This document shows, in pieces, positions 1-37,882 of a DNA stretch of 37,882 bases. Position 1 is the stretch's first letter; each line of letters opens with the position of its first letter. Source of the stretch: a virus (Duplodnaviria > Caudoviricetes); the IMG/VR virus record IMGVR_UViG_3300030098_004104, positions 1-37,882 of that record, one strand, 5' to 3'. The notes under the pieces are model-generated. The model ran no database searches, was not told where the DNA came from, and saw nothing but the letters and a program-made list of their open reading frames with translations. Made by a program: the position numbers and the translations under genes.

Positions 1-139
1 TGCCGAGCTTTAACCACCTGGGACTTGCCAGGTGCTAGCAGATCCCACGCTTGCTGTAGAGGCTCTTGGAACGTGGCTGCTGCAAACTTAGGGGCAAAGA
101 AGACCTTGCCGAGTATGCTGTTCACAGGACCAGCAGCCC
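1..139. repeat. Terminal direct repeat / circular overlap, left copy
   Basis: 1-139 matches 37744-37882 except C39/A37782 and A60/C37803. Confidence 0.97.
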
Positions 140-2990
140 GAGCAGGCAGGATTTGCTCAACCAGGTCGCCTCGTCCGGTTGCGATGTTGATGATTCTGGC
201 TAAAGCAGCGGCATCATCAGCACCGACGCGCCGCACGCCGTCCGCTGTCTGCACAACGCCAACGTCATCGGGCAGCAGGCTCTTCATCCAAAACGCGCCG
301 CCGTCTACGCGCGTCCAGTTGTCGAAGATCATAATACGCAACTGGTTGAGCATCGTGGCGTAGGTGCGCTCAGAGAAGCGGAGGATCTTACCGGCACCCC
401 TAGAAACAAGACCGCCACCAGCGAGAGCGTTGTTGACGAACATCTCCTCTCGCTTGTTTACGCCCGTGCCTCGCACCCCCTCTACGTCTGTAGTGAACAG
501 CCCAGACTTGTCTCCGTACTGCCCGACAGGGCTCTGCACCAGCTTCCGTTGCAGGTCGGCGGCGTAATCGGGGTCTAGGACAGACCTAAGCATCTTAACA
601 GCCGCCTTGGTTCCTAAGATTGGGTGCGCTTTAAACAGCTTGATGCCCTGCCTTCCGAAAGCAGAGAGATCGAGTGAGGCTTGGATTGCACGAGACATGT
701 TGAGAGCGTCAGTCGCCCTGGCGATCCAGCCAAGGTTAGCCGCAGCGTTCATCTCTGCGTTGGCGATTGCAGCCTCTCTGCTCGCGTCAGTCTGAGCGCG
801 CTTGGCCCTCTTGCGCTTCTTCTTAATCTCGTTGACGATCTTCTGCTTTTGCTTGTCTGGAAGCGCGAGAACAAGAGCGCGCTCTTCAGCTTGGTCGAGC
901 TTTAGGATCTCCTCGTCGAGCTTTTCAATGCGCTCCTGAGCCTTGGTCTTCCTTTCCTTGGCGTCGTTGAACTTAGTCTTAACCTTCTCCGCTTCATCGG
1001 GGGTAAGTTTGCCGCCCTTTTGCACCGTGGCAAGGTCTACGGCCTGGGCGTCTGTCATGTCTTCAAACATGGACACGTATGCCTGCCTAGCACGGCCAGC
1101 GCGACCCCACTCTGACCCGCTAACCTCAAGGGCGCTAAAGACCTCATCGAGCGCAGCCTCGGCCTCTTCCACTTTCTGCATGTGGTCTTTGTCTACGTTC
1201 TTTCGGGCTTTGCCGACCGCCGCGTGCGGCATAACTTGCTTCTCAGCGTCAGCCGTCTCCTTACGCATTGCTTTTGCGTACTCGGTTCGAGCAATGTCTA
1301 AGTCCTTCTCCCTGGCATACGCCACGAGGGTGGCAGCGAACTGTTGCCGGTCGGTGAGGATTCGCTCCCCTCGCCTAGCTTCGTCCAGCGCATCGAGCAG
1401 CCCAGGCTGCGGCATAAAGGTGTCAACCGAACTGCCGTCAGGCAGGACAACAGAGCCAAGCGTCACGAGGTCTTTGGCGTTGTCAAACGCCTGCGCGAGA
1501 GTGCGAGTTGCGGGGGTAGAGGTGTCCCCTTCAGGCAACCCAAGAAGCTGGCGCATAATCTTGGTGGCCTCGTGCTTGGCACCCCTGACGATTCGCTGCT
1601 TAGGAGCGCCGGTTTCAGCGCGAGCCGGAACGGGCGGCTGCTTTGGCTCAGGCTCGGCTCTTCTGTTGATCGCTTGGGCTTTCGACAGGACTTCTCTTTG
1701 GCTGAACTTAGGGAGGTTAGGGGCTGCGCTGGCGTCCTCAATCTCATCAGCCAGACCAGGGGTAGCCCCCTTGGCGTTGTCGAGCGCCTCTTGCGTCTCT
1801 TGTGCGCGCTCGGCATCTCTGGCTAGCCGAGCAGTCTCATCAATCTGGTGCTGCTCAACGGCGTCTACGGTGTCCTTCACCTCTTCGGCAAGCTCTTCGA
1901 TGGTCTTGTCCACCTTGCCGATCTTGCGCTCAGCCTTGGCCTTCTTGAGAGCCTGGTTGGCCTTGAGCAAACCACGACTCACAGAGCCCGGCACTTGGCC
2001 AGCTTTCTTCAGCGCAGAGAACGCGCCCTTGACCGCAGGCACAGCACCGAGAGACGCGACAGTGATGGCCGTGTCAATGGGCTCAGCGGCAGCGTATGCC
2101 GCTGGGTCTTGGGCCATAACATCCATGTCCACAGCCATCGCTCGGCCCATCTCTCTCGCCATCGGGGCAAAGGAGTCCCTTGCTTGGCGCTGGATGGTGG
2201 CCAAGTCTCCGCTCTCTCCAAGAACGGGGTCGCCCATTGCCAGGTCTGCGATGAAAGAAAAGGCGTCGTACAGATCAGAGGCGTCCTGCTGCACCGCGTC
2301 AGAGACAACGCGCTGGCTGCGCTTTTGAACGTCTGCCGTTCGGTCGCGCACCATGTTGGCGTACCAGGTGGGCTGCTTCTCTCTCAAGTAATCCACAGCG
2401 GCTTGGCTTGGGTTTACGTCAGGCCGAACCACGGGGGCACCACCGAGGGCTGCGCCGCCCATCATCGCGCCTGCACGCGTGAAGACAGATCGGCCTGCCT
2501 CTAAGCCCGCCTCGAAGAAGCCCGGCGCGCCTTCTGTTGCAAGGGCCTGCAACCTTCCTGACACAACCCTTTCGGCAGCGCGCTCTTGTTGCCCAGCGGC
2601 CTCCCTGAACAGTCCCCTTTGTTGAGATGGCGTAGCATCTGAAGGCCCAATCACAGCCTGCCGAGGCACCTGCCCAGGAAGAACCTCCTGCTCTACGCCC
2701 GGGAAGCCGACCTTTCGGAAGGTAGGTACGCGCGCCCTAGCGACTCGCTCGCGCTCGGCTATGTCAGCCTCTTCCTGGGTGGGCATCCCGGTGATTAGCC
2801 CAGAGATGGTCTGGGCAACGGCCTGTCCTCTTTCCTGTTGCGCCCCATCAAGAGGCTCGGGCTCGGGCGCAGGTGGCGCTTTAGAAGGCGAAGACGCAAA
2901 GATCTCCTCCAACTCTGCCTCTGTCGGAGGGGAGTCGCCAACAAGCTCAAAGACTCTGCCGTCAGGGTGTATGACTTCGTAGGTTGGCAT
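1..2990 (-). CDS. Large internal virion / DNA-ejection-like protein, N-terminal part; continues through the junction to 37146 (~1195 aa total)
   Basis: ATG at 2990 gives MPTYEVIHPDGRVFELVGDSPPTEAELEEIFAS...; absent from the ORF track, consistent with running off the window edge; same frame as 37146..37868 after subtracting 37743; Ala/Glu/Lys-rich; last and largest of three ORFs after the tail genes. Confidence 0.75.
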   Translation of the reverse strand, partial: MPTYEVIHPDGRVFELVGDSPPTEAELEEIFASSPSKAPPAPEPEPLDGAQQERGQAVAQTISGLITGMPTQEEADIAERERVARARVPTFRKVGFPGVEQEVLPGQVPRQAVIGPSDATPSQQRGLFREAAGQQERAAERVVSGRLQALATEGAPGFFEAGLEAGRSVFTRAGAMMGGAALGGAPVVRPDVNPSQAAVDYLREKQPTWYANMVRDRTADVQKRSQRVVSDAVQQDASDLYDAFSFIADLAMGDPVLGESGDLATIQRQARDSFAPMAREMGRAMAVDMDVMAQDPAAYAAAEPIDTAITVASLGAVPAVKGAFSALKKAGQVPGSVSRGLLKANQALKKAKAERKIGKVDKTIEELAEEVKDTVDAVEQHQIDETARLARDAERAQETQEALDNAKGATPGLADEIEDASAAPNLPKFSQREVLSKAQAINRRAEPEPKQPPVPARAETGAPKQRIVRGAKHEATKIMRQLLGLPEGDTSTPATRTLAQAFDNAKDLVTLGSVVLPDGSSVDTFMPQPGLLDALDEARRGERILTDRQQFAATLVAYAREKDLDIARTEYAKAMRKETADAEKQVMPHAAVGKARKNVDKDHMQKVEEAEAALDEVFSALEVSGSEWGRAGRARQAYVSMFEDMTDAQAVDLATVQKGGKLTPDEAEKVKTKFNDAKERKTKAQERIEKLDEEILKLDQAEERALVLALPDKQKQKIVNEIKKKRKRAKRAQTDASREAAIANAEMNAAANLGWIARATDALNMSRAIQASLDLSAFGRQGIKLFKAHPILGTKAAVKMLRSVLDPDYAADLQRKLVQSPVGQYGDKSGLFTTDVEGVRGTGVNKREEMFVNNALAGGGLVSRGAGKILRFSERTYATMLNQLRIMIFDNWTRVDGGAFWMKSLLPDDVGVVQTADGVRRVGADDAAALARIINIATGRGDLVEQILPARAAGPVNSILGKVFFAPKFAAATFQEPLQQAWDLLAPGKSQVVKAR

Positions 2991-3002
2991 TTAGTTCTCT
3001 GC

Positions 3003-4427
3003 CTACTTCTCTGTCACTATAAACCGGCCCGTCTTCTTGGCCGGTCGGCTCTTCCGTGCTTTCGCAATGGCAGCGTCGAGTATATCAAGCTGTGCCTTTT
3101 GCGTGGGGGTCATAACCGGGAGCTTGCCGTCAACCTCGACCAGCCCCTCTTTAACAAAGAAGTCACTCCGCGCTTTGACCGCCTTTTCAAATTCTTCTTC
3201 GGCCTTTTCAGCCTCTCTGGCCTTGGCCGTTTCTTGGCGCTTCTCGGCCCTCTCTTCCGCAGTCTCTTCTTTGTTCTCTTGACCAGCAGTGCCGCGCTCT
3301 GTCTGGGTAAGCTGAGTGCCGATCTTGGTCAGGATACGTTGGACGTTTTTCTGCGCCCTAGACCCGCTTCTTAGCCTGCTAGACAGGTACTGCAACTGAG
3401 AGATAGCCCCGTTGGGGTCGCTTCCGTAAGTAATGGTCAGCGTCTCTCCGTCGCCAATCTCAACGACTTGGTCCTGCCGTTCCGTGGTGGGCTTTCGCCA
3501 CTCATCCATCTTGAACTGGTTTTTAAAGTCGGCTTCGCTCGTGCTTGGCTTAAAGGTACGGCCAGCCTTGTCGAGCTTCTCCCGGTCTTTTTCTTTCATC
3601 CTAGCGAGCCGCCCCTTGGCGATCTGAAGATTGACCTCCCGCAACTCGTCAGGCTCCCTGCCCTCTCGCAGCAGGCGCAGGGTCTGCATCATCTCGTTGC
3701 GCGCGTCGCGCACGGTGAGGCCCTCACGAATATACGTCGGGTCATTCTCAACCGCGTCTTCCAACGCCATCCATGCGTCTCGAACCACCTCGTTGGGAAG
3801 CTGGCCGTGGTTTTGGTAGTAGTCCAGCACCGCGCCAGTCACGTCGCCCACGGTCTTAATGCCAAGCTCCTCAAGCTGGCCGCGCCGTGCCTCTCGCTCA
3901 GCCTGTGCGGTGCGCTGGCGCTCAAGGAGTGGAGCCCACAAGCCAGCCCTTTCCTCTGCCTGCATTTCTTGGGAAATTGCCGCCTCTTGTTGCTGAAGCT
4001 CTGTGGGCGCTTGGCCTGGCGGCAACTGCTCTGCCGGGACTTCTCCAAGCGAAGACGCTAGGCGTGGACCCGCGCCGGTGATTGCAGGGTCTACGCCGGT
4101 GCCCATTGGGGCGAGTGCTCGCATTGCAGAAGGGTCGCCAGCCAAAGCCGCTTGCGTAACCCCCGCCATCTGCTGCTCAACGCTGGGCTCAACAGGCCCC
4201 TGTGGCATCCCGGCCTCTTTCAACCGGCTCTCTGCCATCTGCGCCTGAATCTCTCGAACACCACGAGCGGCCAGCCCCTCTTTAGAGCCAAGAGCCTCAG
4301 CGAGACGCACCCAAGCAAGAAGCTGGTTGGGGTCTTTGTACCAGTCCTTCTCTTGCTGCGGCTGGCGCATGGCAGCGATTTGCGTGCGCTGTGGCCTCTG
4401 CGAGCCTGGGAACCTAATGCGAGCCAT
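3003..4427 (-). CDS. Putative internal virion / ejection protein (474 aa)
   Basis: Q/E/A/R-rich helical ORF between tail genes and the giant ORF, the usual podovirus ejection-protein position. Confidence 0.55.
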   Translation of the reverse strand: MARIRFPGSQRPQRTQIAAMRQPQQEKDWYKDPNQLLAWVRLAEALGSKEGLAARGVREIQAQMAESRLKEAGMPQGPVEPSVEQQMAGVTQAALAGDPSAMRALAPMGTGVDPAITGAGPRLASSLGEVPAEQLPPGQAPTELQQQEAAISQEMQAEERAGLWAPLLERQRTAQAEREARRGQLEELGIKTVGDVTGAVLDYYQNHGQLPNEVVRDAWMALEDAVENDPTYIREGLTVRDARNEMMQTLRLLREGREPDELREVNLQIAKGRLARMKEKDREKLDKAGRTFKPSTSEADFKNQFKMDEWRKPTTERQDQVVEIGDGETLTITYGSDPNGAISQLQYLSSRLRSGSRAQKNVQRILTKIGTQLTQTERGTAGQENKEETAEERAEKRQETAKAREAEKAEEEFEKAVKARSDFFVKEGLVEVDGKLPVMTPTQKAQLDILDAAIAKARKSRPAKKTGRFIVTEK

Positions 4428-21678: not shown

Positions 21679-23009
21679 AACGCCGCCTCCATGAATTTCA
21701 TGCGGGATCCTGACCACTGGATGTCTTTGCAGTCCAGCGACCTCTGCTCTCCGTGTCGGAACTTGTCCATGCCAATCTCAGCACTGTTGCGGTTCATGTG
21801 CGGCTGGATACGCGCAGGCAACCAGGGCACGAGCGCCAGGTCAGCGTCATCCTCAATCGAGCCGCTTCCCTTGGCGTCCGAGATATGAGGGCGTCGCTTG
21901 GCTCTCTTGGCCTCTAGCACCGGCTGGCTAAGGCAGACCACCACGCACCCAAGCTCTACCGCCAGCAGCTTGAGCCCACGGGTGTTGTGGCTGATTTCCT
22001 CTTCTTTGGTGGAGTCCCTTCTGCCGGTAGAGCCCTTCATCAACTGCAAGTAGTCCACGACCACCATGCCGATAGAGCCGCGCTCAATCGCGATGCGTCT
22101 GGCGGTTCGTCGGATCTGCTCCACAGTAGCGCACCGAGCCCCCTCCACAATCAGCGGCAGTGAAGACACCGTTTCAGCGGCCCCGTACATACGGCTGTGC
22201 TCCTCGCTGGACAGCCCCGGCTTTTGCTGGACATGCACAGGCACCCCGCTCTCAGCGGCCACCATTCTCCCGTACACCTCTTCTGCTGCCATCTCGTAAG
22301 AACAGACCAACACCGGATTGCCACGCTTGGCGCTAGAGAGCGCAAAGTTGTTTACTGCCAGGGCGCTCTTGCCATGACCAGCCGCGCTCATCACGACAAC
22401 CAGCCACCCAGGCCTAAATCCCCCACCGAGCACCTCATCGAGCGGCGGCAGTCCCGTAGTAAGCCGGGTGGTATCCACCTTCCCGTCTTGGATGGCCTGT
22501 ACCTGCTCCATGTAGGTCTTGATGCCATCGACCGCGCTTGTGCCCCGGTCCATGTTCCCGCGCTCTTGTAGCCGACGAAGCGTCTCCTCAGCCTGGTCAA
22601 GCGCCGCATACCCAGGCAAGTCGCCAAACCCCAGGTGGCTCACCCGGTCCCCGGCCTCCACGATGGCGCGCTTTAGGGCCTTCTCGATGACGATCTGAGC
22701 ATACCGCTGGATATTCGTGGTGGTGCCTTTGCGGTCCAAGACCTCACTCAGAGCGTAGATCCCCCCAGCCTCCTCCCAGACGCCCATGTCTTGCAGCGTT
22801 GTCTTGATCATCACCTCATCAAAGGTCTGATGCTTCCCATACGCCTGCACCATCGCAGTAAACATATGGCCGTAACGACCCAGGTAGAAGTCCTTAGACC
22901 TCAAACCCATCATCAACACATCATCCAGCAAATGAGGCCCCAGCAACAAAGCACCAAGAACCTCACGCTCAGCGTCTACCGAATGCGGCAGTACCATCCC
23001 GTCAACCAA
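21675..23009 (-). CDS. dnaB: DnaB-like replicative helicase (444 aa)
   Basis: LPHSVDAEREVLGALL, TGLPPLD, Walker A AAGHGKS, SYEM, VVVDYLQLM, CLSQ, SGSIEDDAD, KFRHG; AGGAGGTG RBS. Confidence 0.95.
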   Translation of the reverse strand: MVDGMVLPHSVDAEREVLGALLLGPHLLDDVLMMGLRSKDFYLGRYGHMFTAMVQAYGKHQTFDEVMIKTTLQDMGVWEEAGGIYALSEVLDRKGTTTNIQRYAQIVIEKALKRAIVEAGDRVSHLGFGDLPGYAALDQAEETLRRLQERGNMDRGTSAVDGIKTYMEQVQAIQDGKVDTTRLTTGLPPLDEVLGGGFRPGWLVVVMSAAGHGKSALAVNNFALSSAKRGNPVLVCSYEMAAEEVYGRMVAAESGVPVHVQQKPGLSSEEHSRMYGAAETVSSLPLIVEGARCATVEQIRRTARRIAIERGSIGMVVVDYLQLMKGSTGRRDSTKEEEISHNTRGLKLLAVELGCVVVCLSQPVLEAKRAKRRPHISDAKGSGSIEDDADLALVPWLPARIQPHMNRNSAEIGMDKFRHGEQRSLDCKDIQWSGSRMKFMEAAF

Positions 23010-23128
23010 CTGCTCACCTCCTAGTTGGCACAGTCCATGCTACGCGGGCGTGTCGCGCGCTATGAACTAGTAATCTTCAGACTAGAAGAACTGTACTGAT
23101 CTGTTCTTCTCTTATTTCTTTTAAGACT

Positions 23129-23458
23129 CTAAGCAACTGTTAAGTCTTTCTTCTCAATCTCTAGGCAACTGGAAACCTCCGCGCGCGTGCGCGTGAGAGA
23201 CTCCCGAAACTCAGACTCTCGTTCTCGTGCTGCCTGAAGCTCTGAAGAAGATGTCACCAAATCCTCCATGTTCACTCCAAGAGCACGACTCAGCAAAACA
23301 ACGTCATTGAGAGAACCACCACGGTTCTCAGCGTTGTTCTCGTATTTGCTGATCAAAGGCTGAGAGACACCACTAGCCTCAGCAAGAACCTCCTGGGACA
23401 AACCAACAGACTTGCGAAGAGCACGAAGAGTCTCACCGTCAATCTTGAACCTAGACAT
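23129..23458 (-). CDS. XRE/Cro-family HTH transcription regulator (109 aa)
   Basis: LRALRKSVGLSQEVLAEASGVSQPLISKYEN...LSRALGV; AGGAGGTG RBS. Confidence 0.9.
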   Translation of the reverse strand: MSRFKIDGETLRALRKSVGLSQEVLAEASGVSQPLISKYENNAENRGGSLNDVVLLSRALGVNMEDLVTSSSELQAARERESEFRESLTRTRAEVSSCLEIEKKDLTVA

Positions 23459-23478
23459 AAGCTCACCTCCTGGGAACA

Positions 23479-23507
23479 GGTATATGACAAATCGTCATGT
23501 AGGTCAA
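23479..23507 (-). promoter_or_regulatory. Sigma70-like leftward promoter with palindromic operator
   Basis: Minus strand TTGACC-17nt-TATACC; ATGAC-N5-GTCAT at 23484-23498. Confidence 0.75.
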
Positions 23508-24037
23508 CGGGTTTCGAAAAATTGGCCGTGGAAAGATTGGCTATTCCGCGCAGATCGACCGGACGAAACGCACATCGGGCGTAGTAAGGAAGACGCGATT
23601 CAAGGGAACGCGTAGCCCAAAGAGTCGCAGCCCAAGTAGTCGCGGCCCCTACTGAGTACCTGTTCCTTGTAGCTCAGCCCAACGAGACGGGGTCTAGACG
23701 GCGTCCGAGGCCCCGACTGGGACCATGCCCTGGACGACCCCCAGCCGAGCCCGTACAGGCACCGTTCCGAGGGGCTCAGGGCCTACGCGCCCGATACCGA
23801 GAAGAGTCGAGAGGCAGACCCCCCACAACCCACCTCCCAACCACCTCTCACCACCCCACCTGGAGACTCCGATCGGGGACCGTGGAGCCCTGGTGAGCTA
23901 CGATCGTGCTGTGATCGTGTGTCATTTCGGGCAGTTACAACCCTGTGACCCCGGATTGAGCCGAATTGGGCCCGTTCTGGGCTTCCTGATGAATTGCAGC
24001 CCGGTACAGCGTTTACAAAATGAATTGCAACTTTCTG

Positions 24038-24068
24038 TTGACCCATGACGGAGAGTTATGCCCATAAT
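24038..24068 (+). promoter_or_regulatory. Sigma70-like early promoter with imperfect operator
   Basis: TTGACC-19nt-CATAAT; ATGAC-ggaga-GTTAT at 24045-24059; upstream of the first plus-strand ORF. Confidence 0.6.
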
Positions 24069-24147
24069 ACATCTGTCGACGGGGACTGACCCCAGCGACC
24101 TGACCCTGACCCGGCCCCCGAGGCCGACCCTGACTGGAGACTGACTG

Positions 24148-24420
24148 ATGCACTACACGATCACCACCCACCCTGACAGACTGGATAGAATCATGAGCAA
24201 GCCTAGCAACCTGAAGAGCACGCAGCTACCAGCGTCCCCCGTTGTCAGCCACAACGGATATCAGAACCGCTTTGTTGTCACCGCAGACCCGGACGGGTGC
24301 CCCTATCTTCAAGAGCAGCGCCTGGTTGACGGTCGCTGGGTCGACCGTCCTGGCATTGGGTCCAACACGGTCCAGGCTGCGCTGATTGCCGTGCTCTGTG
24401 AGCGATTTGACGCCAACTAG
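24148..24420 (+). CDS. Hypothetical early protein (alternative start ATG 24193)
   Basis: GGAGA RBS; both candidate starts are preceded by the CCCTGAC..CTGGA leader. Confidence 0.6.
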   Translation: MHYTITTHPDRLDRIMSKPSNLKSTQLPASPVVSHNGYQNRFVVTADPDGCPYLQEQRLVDGRWVDRPGIGSNTVQAALIAVLCERFDAN

Positions 24421-24479
24421 TCGAAACGCCCTCCGGGGCGTCTGCGGGAGATGGCCTACCCGTACTGATGAGACAGGCC
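24420..24479 (+). ncRNA. Hammerhead ribozyme, type II with loop-I pseudoknot
   Basis: GTC-GAA-ACGCCC(TCCG)GGGCGT-C^-TGCGGG(AGATGGCCTA)CCCGTA-CTGATGA-GAC-AGGCC; all core nucleotides and three stems present; 3' AGGCC pairs with loop GGCCT. Confidence 0.93.
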
Positions 24480-24507
24480 CTGACTTCTTTACTACCTGGA
24501 GAGAATC

Positions 24508-24756
24508 ATGAGCAGCACCGCACGCCGATACCAGAACCAGAGCCCCGCGTTCGACCTTCCCGCGGGCTACGATATCCGGCTAACAGAAGAGCAGGTTGAA
24601 TTCTTGGTTCAGACTGTTCTGTCTGGATATATCGTGGATACGAGAGCCGCACTGAAGGGGCTCCCAGACTGGATGGCGGCCAACCTCTGCGAATCCATCG
24701 AGAGGGCCAGGGCCTTACAGGCAACCATTTCCGCTCAATCGTGCGACAACGACTAG
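24508..24756 (+). CDS. Hypothetical early protein (82 aa)
   Basis: GGAGAG RBS, shared leader motif. Confidence 0.65.
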   Translation: MSSTARRYQNQSPAFDLPAGYDIRLTEEQVEFLVQTVLSGYIVDTRAALKGLPDWMAANLCESIERARALQATISAQSCDND

Positions 24757-24798
24757 GCTACAGAGTAACCCTAACCCCTGACTGACTGGAGAATCATC

Positions 24799-25314
24799 AT
24801 GTTTACTGACGGAATGAAGAACAGCGTCCACGAGATCATCGCTGACACCATGCTTACCAACCGCGGCCTGACCCCGGAGCTTGCCCACCGGGTCGTGATC
24901 GAAGAGCTTGGAATGCCTCCTGAGCACTGGGAGAACAGCGCGAAGCTCATCAAGCTGTGCGCCGAGGTGATCGGGCAGTTCCGGCCCCTCTTGTCCCCGC
25001 CTCCCGGCTGGGTGGTGTCTGACCCTGCCCAGGTCTTGCGGTGCGGTGATGTGGTCTGGGACTACACCGATCACAACGAGGGGACGTATCGCGTGATCGC
25101 TCAGCATGCCACCGACGGCTGGTACGGAGCGAACACGAACAGAGCATGGGCATGGGCTCAGAAGAGGCACGGCGACCTGGAGCCCTGGGGCACGATCGAG
25201 GCGCGGCTGGTCTTCCCGGCTGGGTGGTCGTCCGCTGCCAACTCGAAGCTCGCACAGGCCCTGTGCGACCTGGCGACCTCACACCAGCCCTATGACCTGA
25301 GTATCGAGGACTAG
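24799..25314 (+). CDS. Hypothetical early protein (171 aa)
   Basis: GGAGA RBS, shared leader motif. Confidence 0.7.
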   Translation: MFTDGMKNSVHEIIADTMLTNRGLTPELAHRVVIEELGMPPEHWENSAKLIKLCAEVIGQFRPLLSPPPGWVVSDPAQVLRCGDVVWDYTDHNEGTYRVIAQHATDGWYGANTNRAWAWAQKRHGDLEPWGTIEARLVFPAGWSSAANSKLAQALCDLATSHQPYDLSIED

Positions 25315-25325
25315 GCTTCGGGCGT

Positions 25326-25361
25326 CCTGGGAGGCGGTGACACCCCGTCGCCGTCTCCAGG
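25326..25361 (+). other. Long intergenic RNA hairpin
   Basis: CCTGGGAGGCGGTGAC / GTCGCCGTCTCCAGG, ~15 bp with G-U pairs, no U-tract. Confidence 0.55.
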
Positions 25362-25404
25362 GGCTTGTCTGAGTCCATTACCCTGACTTACTGGAGAATC
25401 TACC

Positions 25405-25821
25405 ATGTTGAGCAAGCGACAGAGAATCAAGACCGTTCGAGAGATGGCAGACCGATTGCGCTATGTGTGCATGACCAAGGGCATCCACCGCCTGGGAGAA
25501 CTGGATGACACCATTAAAAAGCAGGAGCGGCACCACCGCAAGCCGCCACCGGGCATGACGCCCCGCCGATACGCGGAGTCCGTCCCCGTGGCCGTGGACT
25601 ACTTCCTTGTGCGATGCTTCGCTAATGCGTTCGAGGTGCTGCGCTCTGCTGAGACTGTCGAGGGATTGCGGAGGGATTTCGGCGGCGCTCGCACCGATTA
25701 CCTGCTGGCCCTGGCGATTGTCGCAGATTACGAGGATGAAATCGCCAGCAGCGTCCATGTCGGCGACCTCATCGCCGCGGGTGACCTTGTGGATTACTTC
25801 ACCGACATCGCGGGGGGGTGA
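25405..25821 (+). CDS. Hypothetical early protein (138 aa)
   Basis: GGAGA RBS, shared leader motif. Confidence 0.7.
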   Translation: MLSKRQRIKTVREMADRLRYVCMTKGIHRLGELDDTIKKQERHHRKPPPGMTPRRYAESVPVAVDYFLVRCFANAFEVLRSAETVEGLRRDFGGARTDYLLALAIVADYEDEIASSVHVGDLIAAGDLVDYFTDIAGG

Positions 25822-26013
25822 GTGATGAAGCCCGAGTGTTATTACTGCAATGCCCAGGCGATCGGAACCGAGAGGGACTACCTCGACTCGCAACTGGCCA
25901 CCATCAATGTGTGCCGAAATTGCGCCCACCTCAACACCACCGTGCGCCTGTTTTCTGGCGGCACATGGGTGCGCCGGTCCCGCCGAAATGCTGACGCCCA
26001 GGGAGGTGAGTGA
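25822..26013 (+). CDS. Small Zn-finger-like protein (63 aa)
   Basis: CYYC ... CRNC; coupled start. Confidence 0.6.
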   Translation: MMKPECYYCNAQAIGTERDYLDSQLATINVCRNCAHLNTTVRLFSGGTWVRRSRRNADAQGGE

Positions 26014-26417
26014 TGAGCAAGCCAACTGTCACACTGATGCAAGCTGAGCCCGCACCCGTGGTGCTTTGGGACCGTGAGCCCGAAACCAGCAACCAAACAG
26101 GAACCGAGACGATGAAAATCCGAAACCTTACACACCTAATCGAGACTCTTCGCCAGGTATTCGACCACACGAGCGAGCCCTTCGAGATGACCGTGTACCA
26201 CCTGGCCCCAGGCGTCACGCTTCAACGGGTCCAGAACAAAGACCTGGCATGGGAGCACCTGAACCCACAGCGCCGAGACGACTGGCAGATATGCGACCGC
26301 ACAGAGCCAGGGATTGTGCGACGCGTCACCGTGCGAACGTCCACAGGCGAGGCCACGCTAGACACCGTCCTTGAGCAGGCCTTCAAGGCCAGCCCAGACC
26401 CACAGAACACCCTCTAG
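26010..26417 (+). CDS. Hypothetical protein (start 26010/26013, or internal ATG 26112)
   Basis: GGAGGTGAGTGATG coupling. Confidence 0.55.
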   Translation: MMSKPTVTLMQAEPAPVVLWDREPETSNQTGTETMKIRNLTHLIETLRQVFDHTSEPFEMTVYHLAPGVTLQRVQNKDLAWEHLNPQRRDDWQICDRTEPGIVRRVTVRTSTGEATLDTVLEQAFKASPDPQNTL

Positions 26418-26497
26418 AACGCATTTCACGCCCTCAAGGGAGGGCAACCTACCAACCAACCAAGCAAAAGCCCGTACGCGGGCAGGGAGATAGCAAG

Positions 26498-28524: not shown

Positions 28525-29211
28525 ATGCATAGCAGGACTCAAGCGTGGGTAGAGGAGGAGCTTGCCGCTCCTCTCAATCCCGCAGTTGTAGAAGAGAAGG
28601 AGGGAATGAGTTACCTCCCGGTCTTCTACGTTCGACAAGAACTAAACAGGATCTTCGGCGCGTCTGGCTGGCGCATCACTCTGCGAGACAACTCGTTGAT
28701 CAACCTATACGAGGTCCAGTCGAATCGTGGCGGCAAGGAGGACAAGAAGCGCCGGGTGATGGTCTACCGTGCCCACGTCACGCTTCGTGTTCGCTTCCCA
28801 GACGGTGAGGTCGTTGAGCATGACGGTGTTGCTGCCGGTGGTGCTCAGTCGTACTCTCCGTTTTGGGAGGACTTGCACCACAACGCCATGACCAGCGCAT
28901 CTTCCAACGCTCTCAAGCGTGCGGCGATGAACCTGGGCAACGCGTTCGGGCTCAGCCTGTACGACGGCAAGAACCCGGTGCACATGGGAGGCTGGGACAC
29001 CTGGGCTGGGTATGCGTACCCGCTCACGCCCACCGCCCGTCACCTGCGCGTGCTTAACGAGCTTGGTCTTGACGTTGATGAGGTCAACGCCTGGATCGAG
29101 TCCGAGGGCTGGCCTGCGTTCGCGCACAAGGATCCCGCAGAGTTCGCCAACTACATGTCCAACGGTGGCATGGATCGCTTCAATAACTTTCTGAACAGCA
29201 ACAAGGAGTAG
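28525..29211 (+). CDS. Rad52/Rad22 (Sak-like) single-strand annealing protein (228 aa)
   Basis: GMSYLPVFYVRQELNRIFGASGW ... AMTSASSNALKRAAMNLGNAFGLSLYD. Confidence 0.88.
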   Translation: MHSRTQAWVEEELAAPLNPAVVEEKEGMSYLPVFYVRQELNRIFGASGWRITLRDNSLINLYEVQSNRGGKEDKKRRVMVYRAHVTLRVRFPDGEVVEHDGVAAGGAQSYSPFWEDLHHNAMTSASSNALKRAAMNLGNAFGLSLYDGKNPVHMGGWDTWAGYAYPLTPTARHLRVLNELGLDVDEVNAWIESEGWPAFAHKDPAEFANYMSNGGMDRFNNFLNSNKE

Positions 29212-37149: not shown

Positions 37150-37882
37150 CGGTACCTCTGCTGGCCCTTCTTGGGCTTTCGGATGTAGTTCGAGAAGCCA
37201 AACAACTCTAGGGCATGGCCAACCACGTCCTTAGACTCCTGCTCGGAGTAGCCCTTCGCCTGCACGTAATTCACAGCGTCGCCGATAAGGGTCGAGACGT
37301 TGATGGGAACTCCAAGCGACACCACCGGCAACACGACGCGCTGAGCCACGTAGTTGAAGATGTCGTCGCCCTCTTTGCCTAGCTCTTGCCCGCGGAACCC
37401 TCGGTTCGTAAAGATTGTGTACGCCGCGCCAAGAGGCCCAATCAGCTTGTTGCGGATTAGCCGGTTCATCTCTGGGCTTGTTACTTCTCCAACGCCTGAC
37501 TTGTCCGTGTCTTGCAGGATGCTCAGCAAGGGCAAGTATCGCCACATAGAAGCGCCACCACCGCTCATGTCTATGATGCGGCGGCTACCGTCTTCTTGTG
37601 GGATAGACAGCGCCAAGAAGTCTGGGCTGTCAGGGTTGAAGAAGTCTGCCATCGCCTCGTCCCAGGGCTTGTCGCTCATGGTTGCGTTGGCTGTGACCAG
37701 AATACCCAGGTTAGCTGCTTGCTCTTTTATGAGGCGCTCAAACTGCCGAGCTTTAACCACCTGGGACTTGCCAGGTGCTAGAAGATCCCACGCTTGCTGT
37801 AGCGGCTCTTGGAACGTGGCTGCTGCAAACTTAGGGGCAAAGAAGACCTTGCCGAGTATGCTGTTCACAGGACCAGCAGCCC
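37146..37882 (-). CDS. C-terminal part of the large internal virion protein that starts at 2990
   Basis: In frame with 1..2990 through the 139-nt overlap; the track's start at 37868 is an edge artefact. Confidence 0.75.
   Translation of the reverse strand, partial: AAGPVNSILGKVFFAPKFAAATFQEPLQQAWDLLAPGKSQVVKARQFERLIKEQAANLGILVTANATMSDKPWDEAMADFFNPDSPDFLALSIPQEDGSRRIIDMSGGGASMWRYLPLLSILQDTDKSGVGEVTSPEMNRLIRNKLIGPLGAAYTIFTNRGFRGQELGKEGDDIFNYVAQRVVLPVVSLGVPINVSTLIGDAVNYVQAKGYSEQESKDVVGHALELFGFSNYIRKPKKGQQRYR
37744..37882. repeat. Terminal direct repeat / circular overlap, right copy
   Basis: Matches 1-139 at 137/139 positions. Confidence 0.97.

What the first reader, a model, noticed from the sequence alone, without database searches (positions are those of the whole stretch)
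24420..24479. Complete type II hammerhead ribozyme between two early genes
Seen in sequence: stem II GTC(24420-22)/GAC(24472-74); GAA core; stem III ACGCCC/GGGCGT with TCCG loop; GUC cleavage triplet ending at C24442; stem I TGCGGG/CCCGTA; CTGATGA core at 24465-71; a 5-bp pseudoknot between 3' AGGCC (24475-79) and loop-I GGCCT (24453-57). It starts on the upstream stop codon and runs into the leader of the next gene. Established: type II hammerheads with this pseudoknot are known from phage and environmental sequences. Inference: self-cleavage splits the early mRNA and leaves a structured 5'-OH end on the downstream cistrons, which could stabilise them.
Basis: partly seen in the sequence, partly recalled or inferred. 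Interest (0 to 1): 0.85.

Follow-up and report, generated by a model that had tools for sequence, protein, structure and literature searches.

The report
Phage hammerhead ribozyme between swappable genes
A marine bacterial virus carries a textbook self-cutting RNA motif of a known kind (type II hammerhead) between two small genes; related strains keep it while swapping the genes on both sides, so it likely serves as a fixed cut point that gives the downstream message a standard new start.

Summary
Confirmed, and of a known kind. Window 24419-24482 (+) matches Rfam Hammerhead_II at 44.3 bits (cut-off 37). It is the only hammerhead found in this ~37.8 kb circular marine phage. Type II pseudoknot hammerheads cutting phage polycistronic RNA are published (PMC3088659).

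The stop-codon overlap is a family habit: 127 of 161 surveyed phage hammerheads start 0-6 nt from an upstream stop (shifted null about 2%), and 132 of 161 have SD plus start codon within 40 nt. This scan found the stop habit before on other DNA.

What this locus adds: strain contigs from four studies keep the ribozyme while the flanking genes differ. A second element of no known family, a long hairpin at 25316-25376, behaves the same way in one run.

Best reading: it cuts after C24442, freeing the first cistron and giving the rest a structured 5'-OH leader, like a natural insulator. Cleavage, early timing and stabilisation are untested; no RNA run was available and the host is unknown. Interest 0.3.

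The parts
24419..24482 (+). Type II hammerhead ribozyme (Rfam RF02276 match)
   Evidence: 44.3 bits, cut-off 37
24420..24422 (+). Stem II 5' strand; its G is the last base of the upstream TAG stop (24418-20); pairs with 24472-74
24423..24442 (+). GAA core, stem III (6 bp, C-UCCG-G loop of UNCG type) and C17; predicted cut after 24442
   Evidence: core rules; the UNCG label is recalled
24443..24464 (+). Stem I (6 bp, 10-nt loop); would be the 5'-OH end of the downstream product
24453..24457 (+). Pseudoknot 5' strand in loop I; pairs with 24475-79
   Evidence: family register 12, the commonest; duplex -7.5 kcal/mol
24465..24479 (+). CUGAUGA core, stem II 3' strand and pseudoknot 3' strand
24478..24510 (+). 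Repeated leader (CTGAC...CTGGAGA) with SD GGAG 24498-24501 and ATG 24508; similar leaders at 24171, 24776 and 25381
24148..24420 (+). Upstream orphan ORF (90 aa from 24148, or 75 aa from 24193); replaced by other sequence in several strains
24508..24756 (+). Downstream orphan ORF (82 aa); replaced or absent in several strains
24038..24068 (+). Promoter-like site (TTGACC, 19 nt, CATAAT); likely start of the operon, spacer atypically long
   Evidence: pattern chosen after seeing the site; not found by the 16-18 nt scan; strain likeness runs up to 24083
24406..24425 (+). Predicted competing hairpin: last codons of the upstream ORF pair with the stem II 5' strand and GAA (-5.3 kcal/mol); not a family feature
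25316..25376 (+). Second intergenic element: long imperfect hairpin just after the TAG at 25312-14, followed by the same leader; no Rfam family; possible RNase III site (inference)

Best explanation
This is a type II pseudoknot hammerhead motif sitting between the first and second small genes of a phage operon, and it likely cuts the message after C24442 so that the downstream genes get a standard, structured 5'-OH start whichever gene lies upstream. Shown: an intact core, all three stems, a pseudoknot in the family's usual register, placement flush with a stop codon and just before an SD, and retention in strains whose flanking genes differ. Inferred: (1) host RNA polymerase starts near 24075 and reads a long, probably early, operon; (2) once the pseudoknot strand at 24475-79 is made, the motif folds and cleaves during transcription; (3) the first cistron leaves with its stop codon intact, a 22-nt tail closed by the stem III hairpin and a 2',3'-cyclic phosphate; (4) the rest starts with a 5'-OH inside stem I, 65 nt before the ATG, which uncouples it from the first gene and, in an RNase E-type host, would slow 5'-end-dependent decay; (5) the ribozyme and the repeated leaders act as fixed joints between which small genes are exchanged.
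For: Rfam match and core rules. The pseudoknot is present in 82 of 96 same-subtype hammerheads with 24 different tail sequences; the tail-swap null is 12 +/- 3, maximum 24. Disrupting such pseudoknots lowers the rate 20- to over 100-fold, and three tandem arrays cleave as predicted in vitro (PMC3088659). In haloviruses HF1/HF2 a major transcript 5' end maps within 3 nt of a hammerhead cut site. Placement: 127 of 161 flush with a stop, 132 of 161 with SD plus start within 40 nt; the longest upstream frame ends beyond the start of stem II in only 9 of 161. Strains: one 5685-nt contig in run X12 follows the window over 23000-24083 and 24768-25830 and holds 24417-24481 with 0 differences, with other sequence on both sides; X9, X16 and X17 show similar breaks. 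RNase E cleaves 5'-OH substrates poorly through its 5' sensor. Engineered RiboJ does this job in synthetic constructs.
Against: No cleavage or expression data exist for this RNA. A local hairpin 24406-24425 is predicted to sequester the stem II 5' strand and GAA (unpaired probability 0.16 at 37 C, 0.05 at 20 C; the model ignores the pseudoknot and tertiary contacts), so this allele could be slower. The SD region is predicted partly paired (unpaired probability 0.34-0.43, measured on 24497-24502, one base off the GGAG). RNase E direct entry needs no 5' phosphate, and RNase J1 degrades the 5'-OH glmS product. The host is unknown. The promoter has a 19-nt spacer and was picked after inspection. 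4 of 18 consensus hammerheads tested by Perreault were inactive. Strain evidence comes from contigs, some only 86-456 nt long.
Confidence: 0.65

Rival explanations
1. Translation-gated switch: a ribosome terminating at TAG 24418-20 covers the stem II 5' strand, GAA and half of stem III, so cutting would happen only when the first gene is not being translated, which links downstream expression to translation state.
For: Forcing 24405-24433 unpaired (my assumed ribosome cover) abolishes stem III in the predicted fold. In the survey 44 of 51 TAG triplets ending on the first base of stem II close an open frame of at least 150 nt, and the strain contigs break at or within 11 nt of the same TAG.
Against: Compact phage genomes would also push the motif against the stop codon; my shifted null lies mostly inside genes and cannot separate the two. 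Offsets spread over 0 to -6 rather than one position. Termination is brief compared with a cleavage rate of about 1 per minute (rate; termination time recalled).
Confidence: 0.15
2. Down-regulator: the cut exposes the downstream RNA to a 5'-to-3' exonuclease, as with glmS, so it lowers or times out expression of the genes after the first one.
For: The 5'-OH glmS product is degraded by RNase J1 in Bacillus subtilis. The host here is unknown.
Against: The new 5' end would be base-paired in every predicted fold. The family keeps an SD and start codon a median 25 nt after stem II, with an A-rich linker (47% A), and arrays repeat the motif before gene after gene (28 of 126 loci with a hit hold 2-4 copies), which fits an expression leader better than a decay signal.
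Confidence: 0.12
3. Passenger or mere recombination joint: the motif is kept as a short homology block for gene exchange, or is damped by the upstream hairpin, and cutting has no effect on fitness.
For: Repeated regulatory cassettes drive modular shuffling in T4-type phages (PMC2839356; abstract and section 13). The predicted hairpin 24406-24425. There is only one copy in this genome.
Against: The core, three stems and pseudoknot are all intact, with 0-3 differences over 56-73 nt in strain contigs whose neighbours are wholly different. Homology alone needs no catalytic core. The competing hairpin is not enriched in the family (23 of 161 at -5 kcal/mol or better, against 40, 28 and 24 further upstream).
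Confidence: 0.08

Closest known systems
Type II hammerhead ribozymes with loop I / 3'-tail pseudoknot (Rfam RF02276; Perreault et al. 2011, PMC3088659; parts 1-5 of 8 read, supplements not opened)
   Same: Topology, full core, GUC triplet, 5-bp pseudoknot, intergenic place in a phage among small unknown genes; proposed processing of long phage transcripts.
   Different: Nothing in the motif. It is a single copy rather than an array. The main text has no occurrence of 'stop codon', 'ribosome' or 'Shine', so the flush placement is not stated there.
Two look-alike hammerheads in cultured Roseobacter phage CRP-212 (MZ892988.1, locus L001)
   Same: 90.5% identity over 42 nt of the 3' part; annotated gp56 ends on a TAG whose G starts stem II, gp55 ends 3 nt before the second copy; a repeated leader and SD follow.
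   Different: Two copies in 6 kb; flanking proteins show no tblastn match to the window's ORFs. Only one of the two copies reached Rfam's cut-off.
HHphage hammerhead of haloviruses HF1/HF2 (PMC3088659)
   Same: A hammerhead just upstream of a start codon in the early region, with a transcript 5' end mapped at the cut site.
   Different: Variant core, archaeal host, 13 nt before a helicase gene.
RiboJ synthetic insulator (passages of PMC8942793)
   Same: A ribozyme plus hairpin before an RBS that gives the same mRNA 5' end whatever lies upstream: this is what the element works like.
   Different: Engineered, placed after a promoter; here natural and placed after a gene. Insulation is not tested here.
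PeSL cassettes of T4-type phages (PMC2839356; abstract and section 13 read) and T7 RNase III processing signals (passage in PMC3867540)
   Same: Repeated intergenic modules running from a stop codon to an SD in variable regions full of orphan genes, used as joints for gene shuffling (PeSL); cutting of a long phage message between genes (T7).
   Different: PeSLs are promoter-terminator units and T7 uses a host enzyme; here the cut is self-catalysed. The hairpin at 25316-25376 may be of the T7 kind, which is untested.

Membership tests
Type II hammerhead ribozyme (RF02276) | Covariance-model score above the curated cut-off | tested here: met
   44.3 bits against 37, model positions 1-66
Type II hammerhead ribozyme (RF02276) | Core C3 U4 G5 A6 N7 G8 A9, G12 A13 A14 A15, U16 H17 | tested here: met
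   CTGATGA 24465-71, GAAA 24423-26, T24441, C24442; rule
Type II hammerhead ribozyme (RF02276) | Pairs next to the core intact (10.1-11.1, 1.1-2.1, 15.1-16.1) | tested here: met
   G24472-C24422, T24443-A24464, A24426-T24441
Type II hammerhead ribozyme (RF02276) | Stems I and III closed by loops, stem II open | tested here: met
   stems I and III pair probability 0.80-1.0 in uncut RNA; stem II itself is not predicted by ViennaRNA (probability 0.02 or less)
Type II hammerhead ribozyme (RF02276) | Pseudoknot of 4 or more pairs between loop I and the tail after stem II | tested here: met
   5 Watson-Crick pairs; register 12, as in 60 of the 86 registers counted in the subtype
Type II hammerhead ribozyme (RF02276) | Site-specific self-cleavage giving 2',3'-cyclic phosphate and 5'-OH | not testable with these tools
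   Needs in vitro transcription or end-mapping RNA data
Clustered prophage hammerhead arrays (Perreault Fig. 3) | Several hammerheads flanking single genes or short gene blocks | tested here: not met
   One only: Rfam and my type I, II and III descriptors on both strands
RNase III processing site (element 25316-25376) | Long, mostly paired hairpin between genes | tested here: inconclusive
   About 26 predicted pairs, -41.3 kcal/mol; z -2.26 for 25305-25410; the length requirement is recalled and no RNase III rule was applied
RNase III processing site (element 25316-25376) | Cleavage by RNase III | not testable with these tools
   Needs an enzyme assay or an rnc mutant

The most novel reading that the evidence does not exclude
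Phage hammerheads are natural insulator cassettes: stop codon, ribozyme, leader and SD form a portable joint that lets a phage swap small early genes freely while every downstream gene still gets the same protected 5' end, with cutting gated by the ribosome terminating on the overlapping stop codon. In this phage a second RNA element of no known family (25316-25376) fills the same slot.
Probability: 0.25. Interest if true: 0.65.

Novelty: new member of a known kind. Interest (0 to 1): 0.3.

Why it matters
The purpose of the many phage-associated self-cleaving ribozymes is still open (review PMC6765202, passages). This locus does not settle it, but it is a clean test case: a single canonical ribozyme after the first gene of an operon, kept while its neighbours change. 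That points to a role tied to position rather than to any one gene. A two-reporter test with a one-base core mutant would separate insulation, decay and translation gating. As a motif it is ordinary: the pattern alone is estimated at about 1300 stored stretches in IMG/VR.

Tried and rejected
Other ribozymes or hammerhead types in the window: none; the weak snoRNA matches at E 4-6 are chance. tRNA/tmRNA: none.

Expression data: no RNA holder listed, which is no evidence either way.

Host: terminase hits were only about 25% identical and the capsid gave two hits at 25-27%; there was no relative in genome contigs, and the variant pattern found nothing there.

Close relatives with the operon: Rad52-like query gave one 29% hit; DnaB gave L142 (58%), which does not reach the operon; ORF 24799-25314 gave none. 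The repressor-like gene gave 13 loci, of which only L143 (99.9% identical, 8 differences, none in the ribozyme) is this phage and is not independent; the other 12 are distant HTH genes with no hammerhead by my descriptor.

Flanking proteins: no PHROG family, and only 2 homologs each, 76-99% identical, among near-length proteins.

An anti-core hairpin next to the ribozyme, as in an earlier scan note: the best downstream duplex with the core was -5.9 kcal/mol, about 120 nt away, so rejected here. The ribozyme core doubling as SD: rejected, there is a separate SD. The upstream competing hairpin as a conserved switch: not enriched.

The second hairpin as a degenerate hammerhead: it has no GAAA or CUGANGA; no Rfam match, no IMG/VR match, nothing in earlier findings.

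Literature searches for the stop-codon placement (listings only) and word searches in two papers found no statement of it. The library lacks most subscription papers, and I opened no supplements; the alignments and figures in the supplement of PMC3088659 may show it.

Full report
OBSERVATION. The sequence holds every element at the stated place. Rfam Hammerhead_II (RF02276) matches 24419-24482 on + at 44.3 bits against a cut-off of 37, E 5.1e-6, over the whole model, and is the only family over its cut-off in the window. The motif meets the acceptance rules of Perreault et al. 2011 (full core, three junction pairs intact). My descriptor finds it once in the window; in 300 dinucleotide shuffles a loose version arose once and one as good never. 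No type I or III motif was found on either strand. Plain folding is uninformative: z -0.65. Stems I and III are predicted (0.80-1.0 in uncut RNA) but stem II is not, and the model omits the pseudoknot, whose duplex alone is -7.5 kcal/mol.

SETTING. The window is a virus record rated 100% complete with a 139-nt end overlap, 57% G+C, held by marine, plankton and sponge metagenome runs. PHROG matches place portal, major head protein, terminase, RusA, a methyltransferase, DnaB and an HTH regulator (23129-23458) on the minus strand. A plus-strand block of small orphan ORFs starts at 24148 and runs to a recombinase-like gene at 28525-29211. Calling this block early is inference from that layout. A promoter-like site lies at 24038-24068 with a 19-nt spacer (I chose the pattern after seeing the site, and the standard scan missed it). 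The ribozyme follows the first ORF, whose TAG supplies the first base of stem II. After it come a leader, an SD at 24498-24501 and the ATG at 24508. The same leader motif precedes four genes and occurs nowhere else in the window. Both flanking proteins have only two near-length homologs each.

FAMILY SURVEY. A pattern fixing stem II as GTC/GAC and the GUC triplet, with no upstream letters, returned 132 IMG/VR loci from 6 of 64 parts of the collection (about 1300 stretches estimated). With the window, L001, L003-L008 and L141 I scanned 141 sources: 188 descriptor hits, 171 unique, 167 after requiring stem III of 4 and stem I of 5 pairs, and 161 with at least 280 nt upstream. Of these, 127 of 161 have an open frame of 150 nt or more ending 0-6 nt before stem II; the same test at shifted positions gives a mean of 1.9% and a maximum of 4.3%. 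After dropping similar upstream sequences it is 119 of 152. Downstream, 132 of 161 have an SD of at least 3 letters, a start codon and an ORF within 40 nt, against 15 of 161 on the opposite strand. In the window's subtype, 82 of 96 have a 4-bp Watson-Crick pseudoknot, with 24 tail sequences, against 12 +/- 3 when tails are swapped; this control does not correct for kinship. The survey is biased to one stem II variant, and its null lies mostly inside genes, so it cannot tell selection for overlap from genome compaction. The cultured phage CRP-212 shows the same layout at annotated gene ends. Earlier notes of this scan report the stop-codon habit on other DNA; they are not independent support.

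STRAINS. In run X12 one 5685-nt contig follows the window over 23000-24083, holds 24417-24481 without a difference, and rejoins at 24768-25830, with 358 and 943 other letters on the two sides. X9 shows joints 24171 to 24411 and 24211 to 24409, and also a contig with the window's own upstream gene; X16 shows a loose end at 24414 and a joint 24486 to 24779; X17 has two short contigs with loose ends at 24417 and 24484-86. Strain contigs differ by 0-3 letters over 56-73 nt. The loose ends after the ribozyme in X9, X12, X16 and X17 carry the same type of leader. The 4-10 visible upstream codons of four contigs show no stop in frame with the TAG (read by eye; weak). X11, another study, is identical over 24380-24540. 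Against over-reading: these are contigs, several are short, the side of some joints is under 31 letters, and unrelated hammerheads also lie on this stretch (X8 records 17, 18; X12 records 3-5; X16 record 8). The X12 contig is the firm case.

MECHANISM. Most likely (0.65) the ribozyme folds once the pseudoknot strand is made and cuts after C24442. The first cistron keeps its stop and a 22-nt tail closed by stem III; the remainder begins with a paired 5'-OH end 65 nt before the ATG. Chemistry and site follow from the family. Processing of polycistronic phage RNA was shown in vitro for three arrays and in E. coli for one, and a halovirus transcript starts at such a site; the purpose is still called undefined in a 2019 review. 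Stabilisation is plausible in an RNase E host, since 5'-OH substrates are cleaved poorly through the 5' sensor and E. coli appears not to phosphorylate hammerhead-made ends, but direct entry is a major route, and in Bacillus the glmS product is degraded. The host is unknown. One local caveat: the last upstream codons can pair with the stem II strand and GAA (-5.3 kcal/mol), which could slow this allele; it is not enriched in the family. Rivals are translation gating (0.15), down-regulation (0.12) and passenger or recombination joint (0.08).

SECOND ELEMENT. 25316-25376 folds into a long imperfect hairpin just after the TAG of ORF 24799-25314 (-41.3 kcal/mol; z -2.26) and is followed by the same leader. 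X9 and X12 contigs run through it, and X16 has a loose end at 25310 and a joint 25400 to 26497 with an 88-letter side, so it too persists beside other genes. It has no Rfam or IMG/VR match. An RNase III site like T7's five processing signals is my guess.

VERDICT. A real, canonical member of a known and common kind; membership is met on every feature testable here, and cleavage is untested. It works like the engineered insulator RiboJ and sits like a PeSL cassette. I did not find the stop-codon placement in print (supplements not opened). Papers seen: PMC3088659 parts 1-5 of 8; PMC2839356 abstract and section 13; PMC6765202, PMC4191395, PMC11780869, PMC3867540 and PMC8942793 passages; all others as listings only. 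Interest 0.3.

Noticed in passing
window 25316-25376 +: Long imperfect hairpin just after a stop codon, followed by the repeated leader; kept in strains, with other genes on both sides in run X16; no known family; possibly an RNase III site.
   Followed up: partly
window 24060-24190, 24478-24507, 24776-24798, 25381-25404 +: Repeated leader CTGAC...CTGGA(G/T)A before four small genes, and a cluster of CTGAC words at 24086-24173; several strain breakpoints fall in or near these leaders.
   Followed up: partly
window 24038-24068 +: Promoter-like site with a 19-nt spacer, facing away from the HTH regulator gene 23129-23458; strain likeness ends 15 nt after it.
   Followed up: partly
window 23460-24030: About 570 nt with no ORF matched to a known role (not scanned against families) between the regulator and the promoter-like site, with C-rich tracts and short repeats; similar sequence in strains. 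Possible origin or control region.
   Followed up: no
window 26418-26497: Intergenic gap with two small G+C hairpins; one reads as a terminator-like site on the minus strand.
   Followed up: no
window 1-139 and 37744-37882: 139-nt end overlap at 98.6% identity: the record is a circular or terminally repeated genome.
   Followed up: yes
L001 2220-2285 and about 2971-3042 (Roseobacter phage CRP-212): Two type II hammerheads, not among the record's listed features, in a cultured phage with a known host: a ready system for in vivo tests.
   Followed up: partly
L009-L140: A second subtype with a 4-bp stem II, a 7-bp stem I, a very short loop I and no pseudoknot is common, and sits in the same stop-to-SD slot.
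   Followed up: no
L142: Related phage contig (terminase 60%, DnaB 58%) in which DnaB is followed by the packaging genes without matches to the RusA and methyltransferase genes seen in the window.
   Followed up: no
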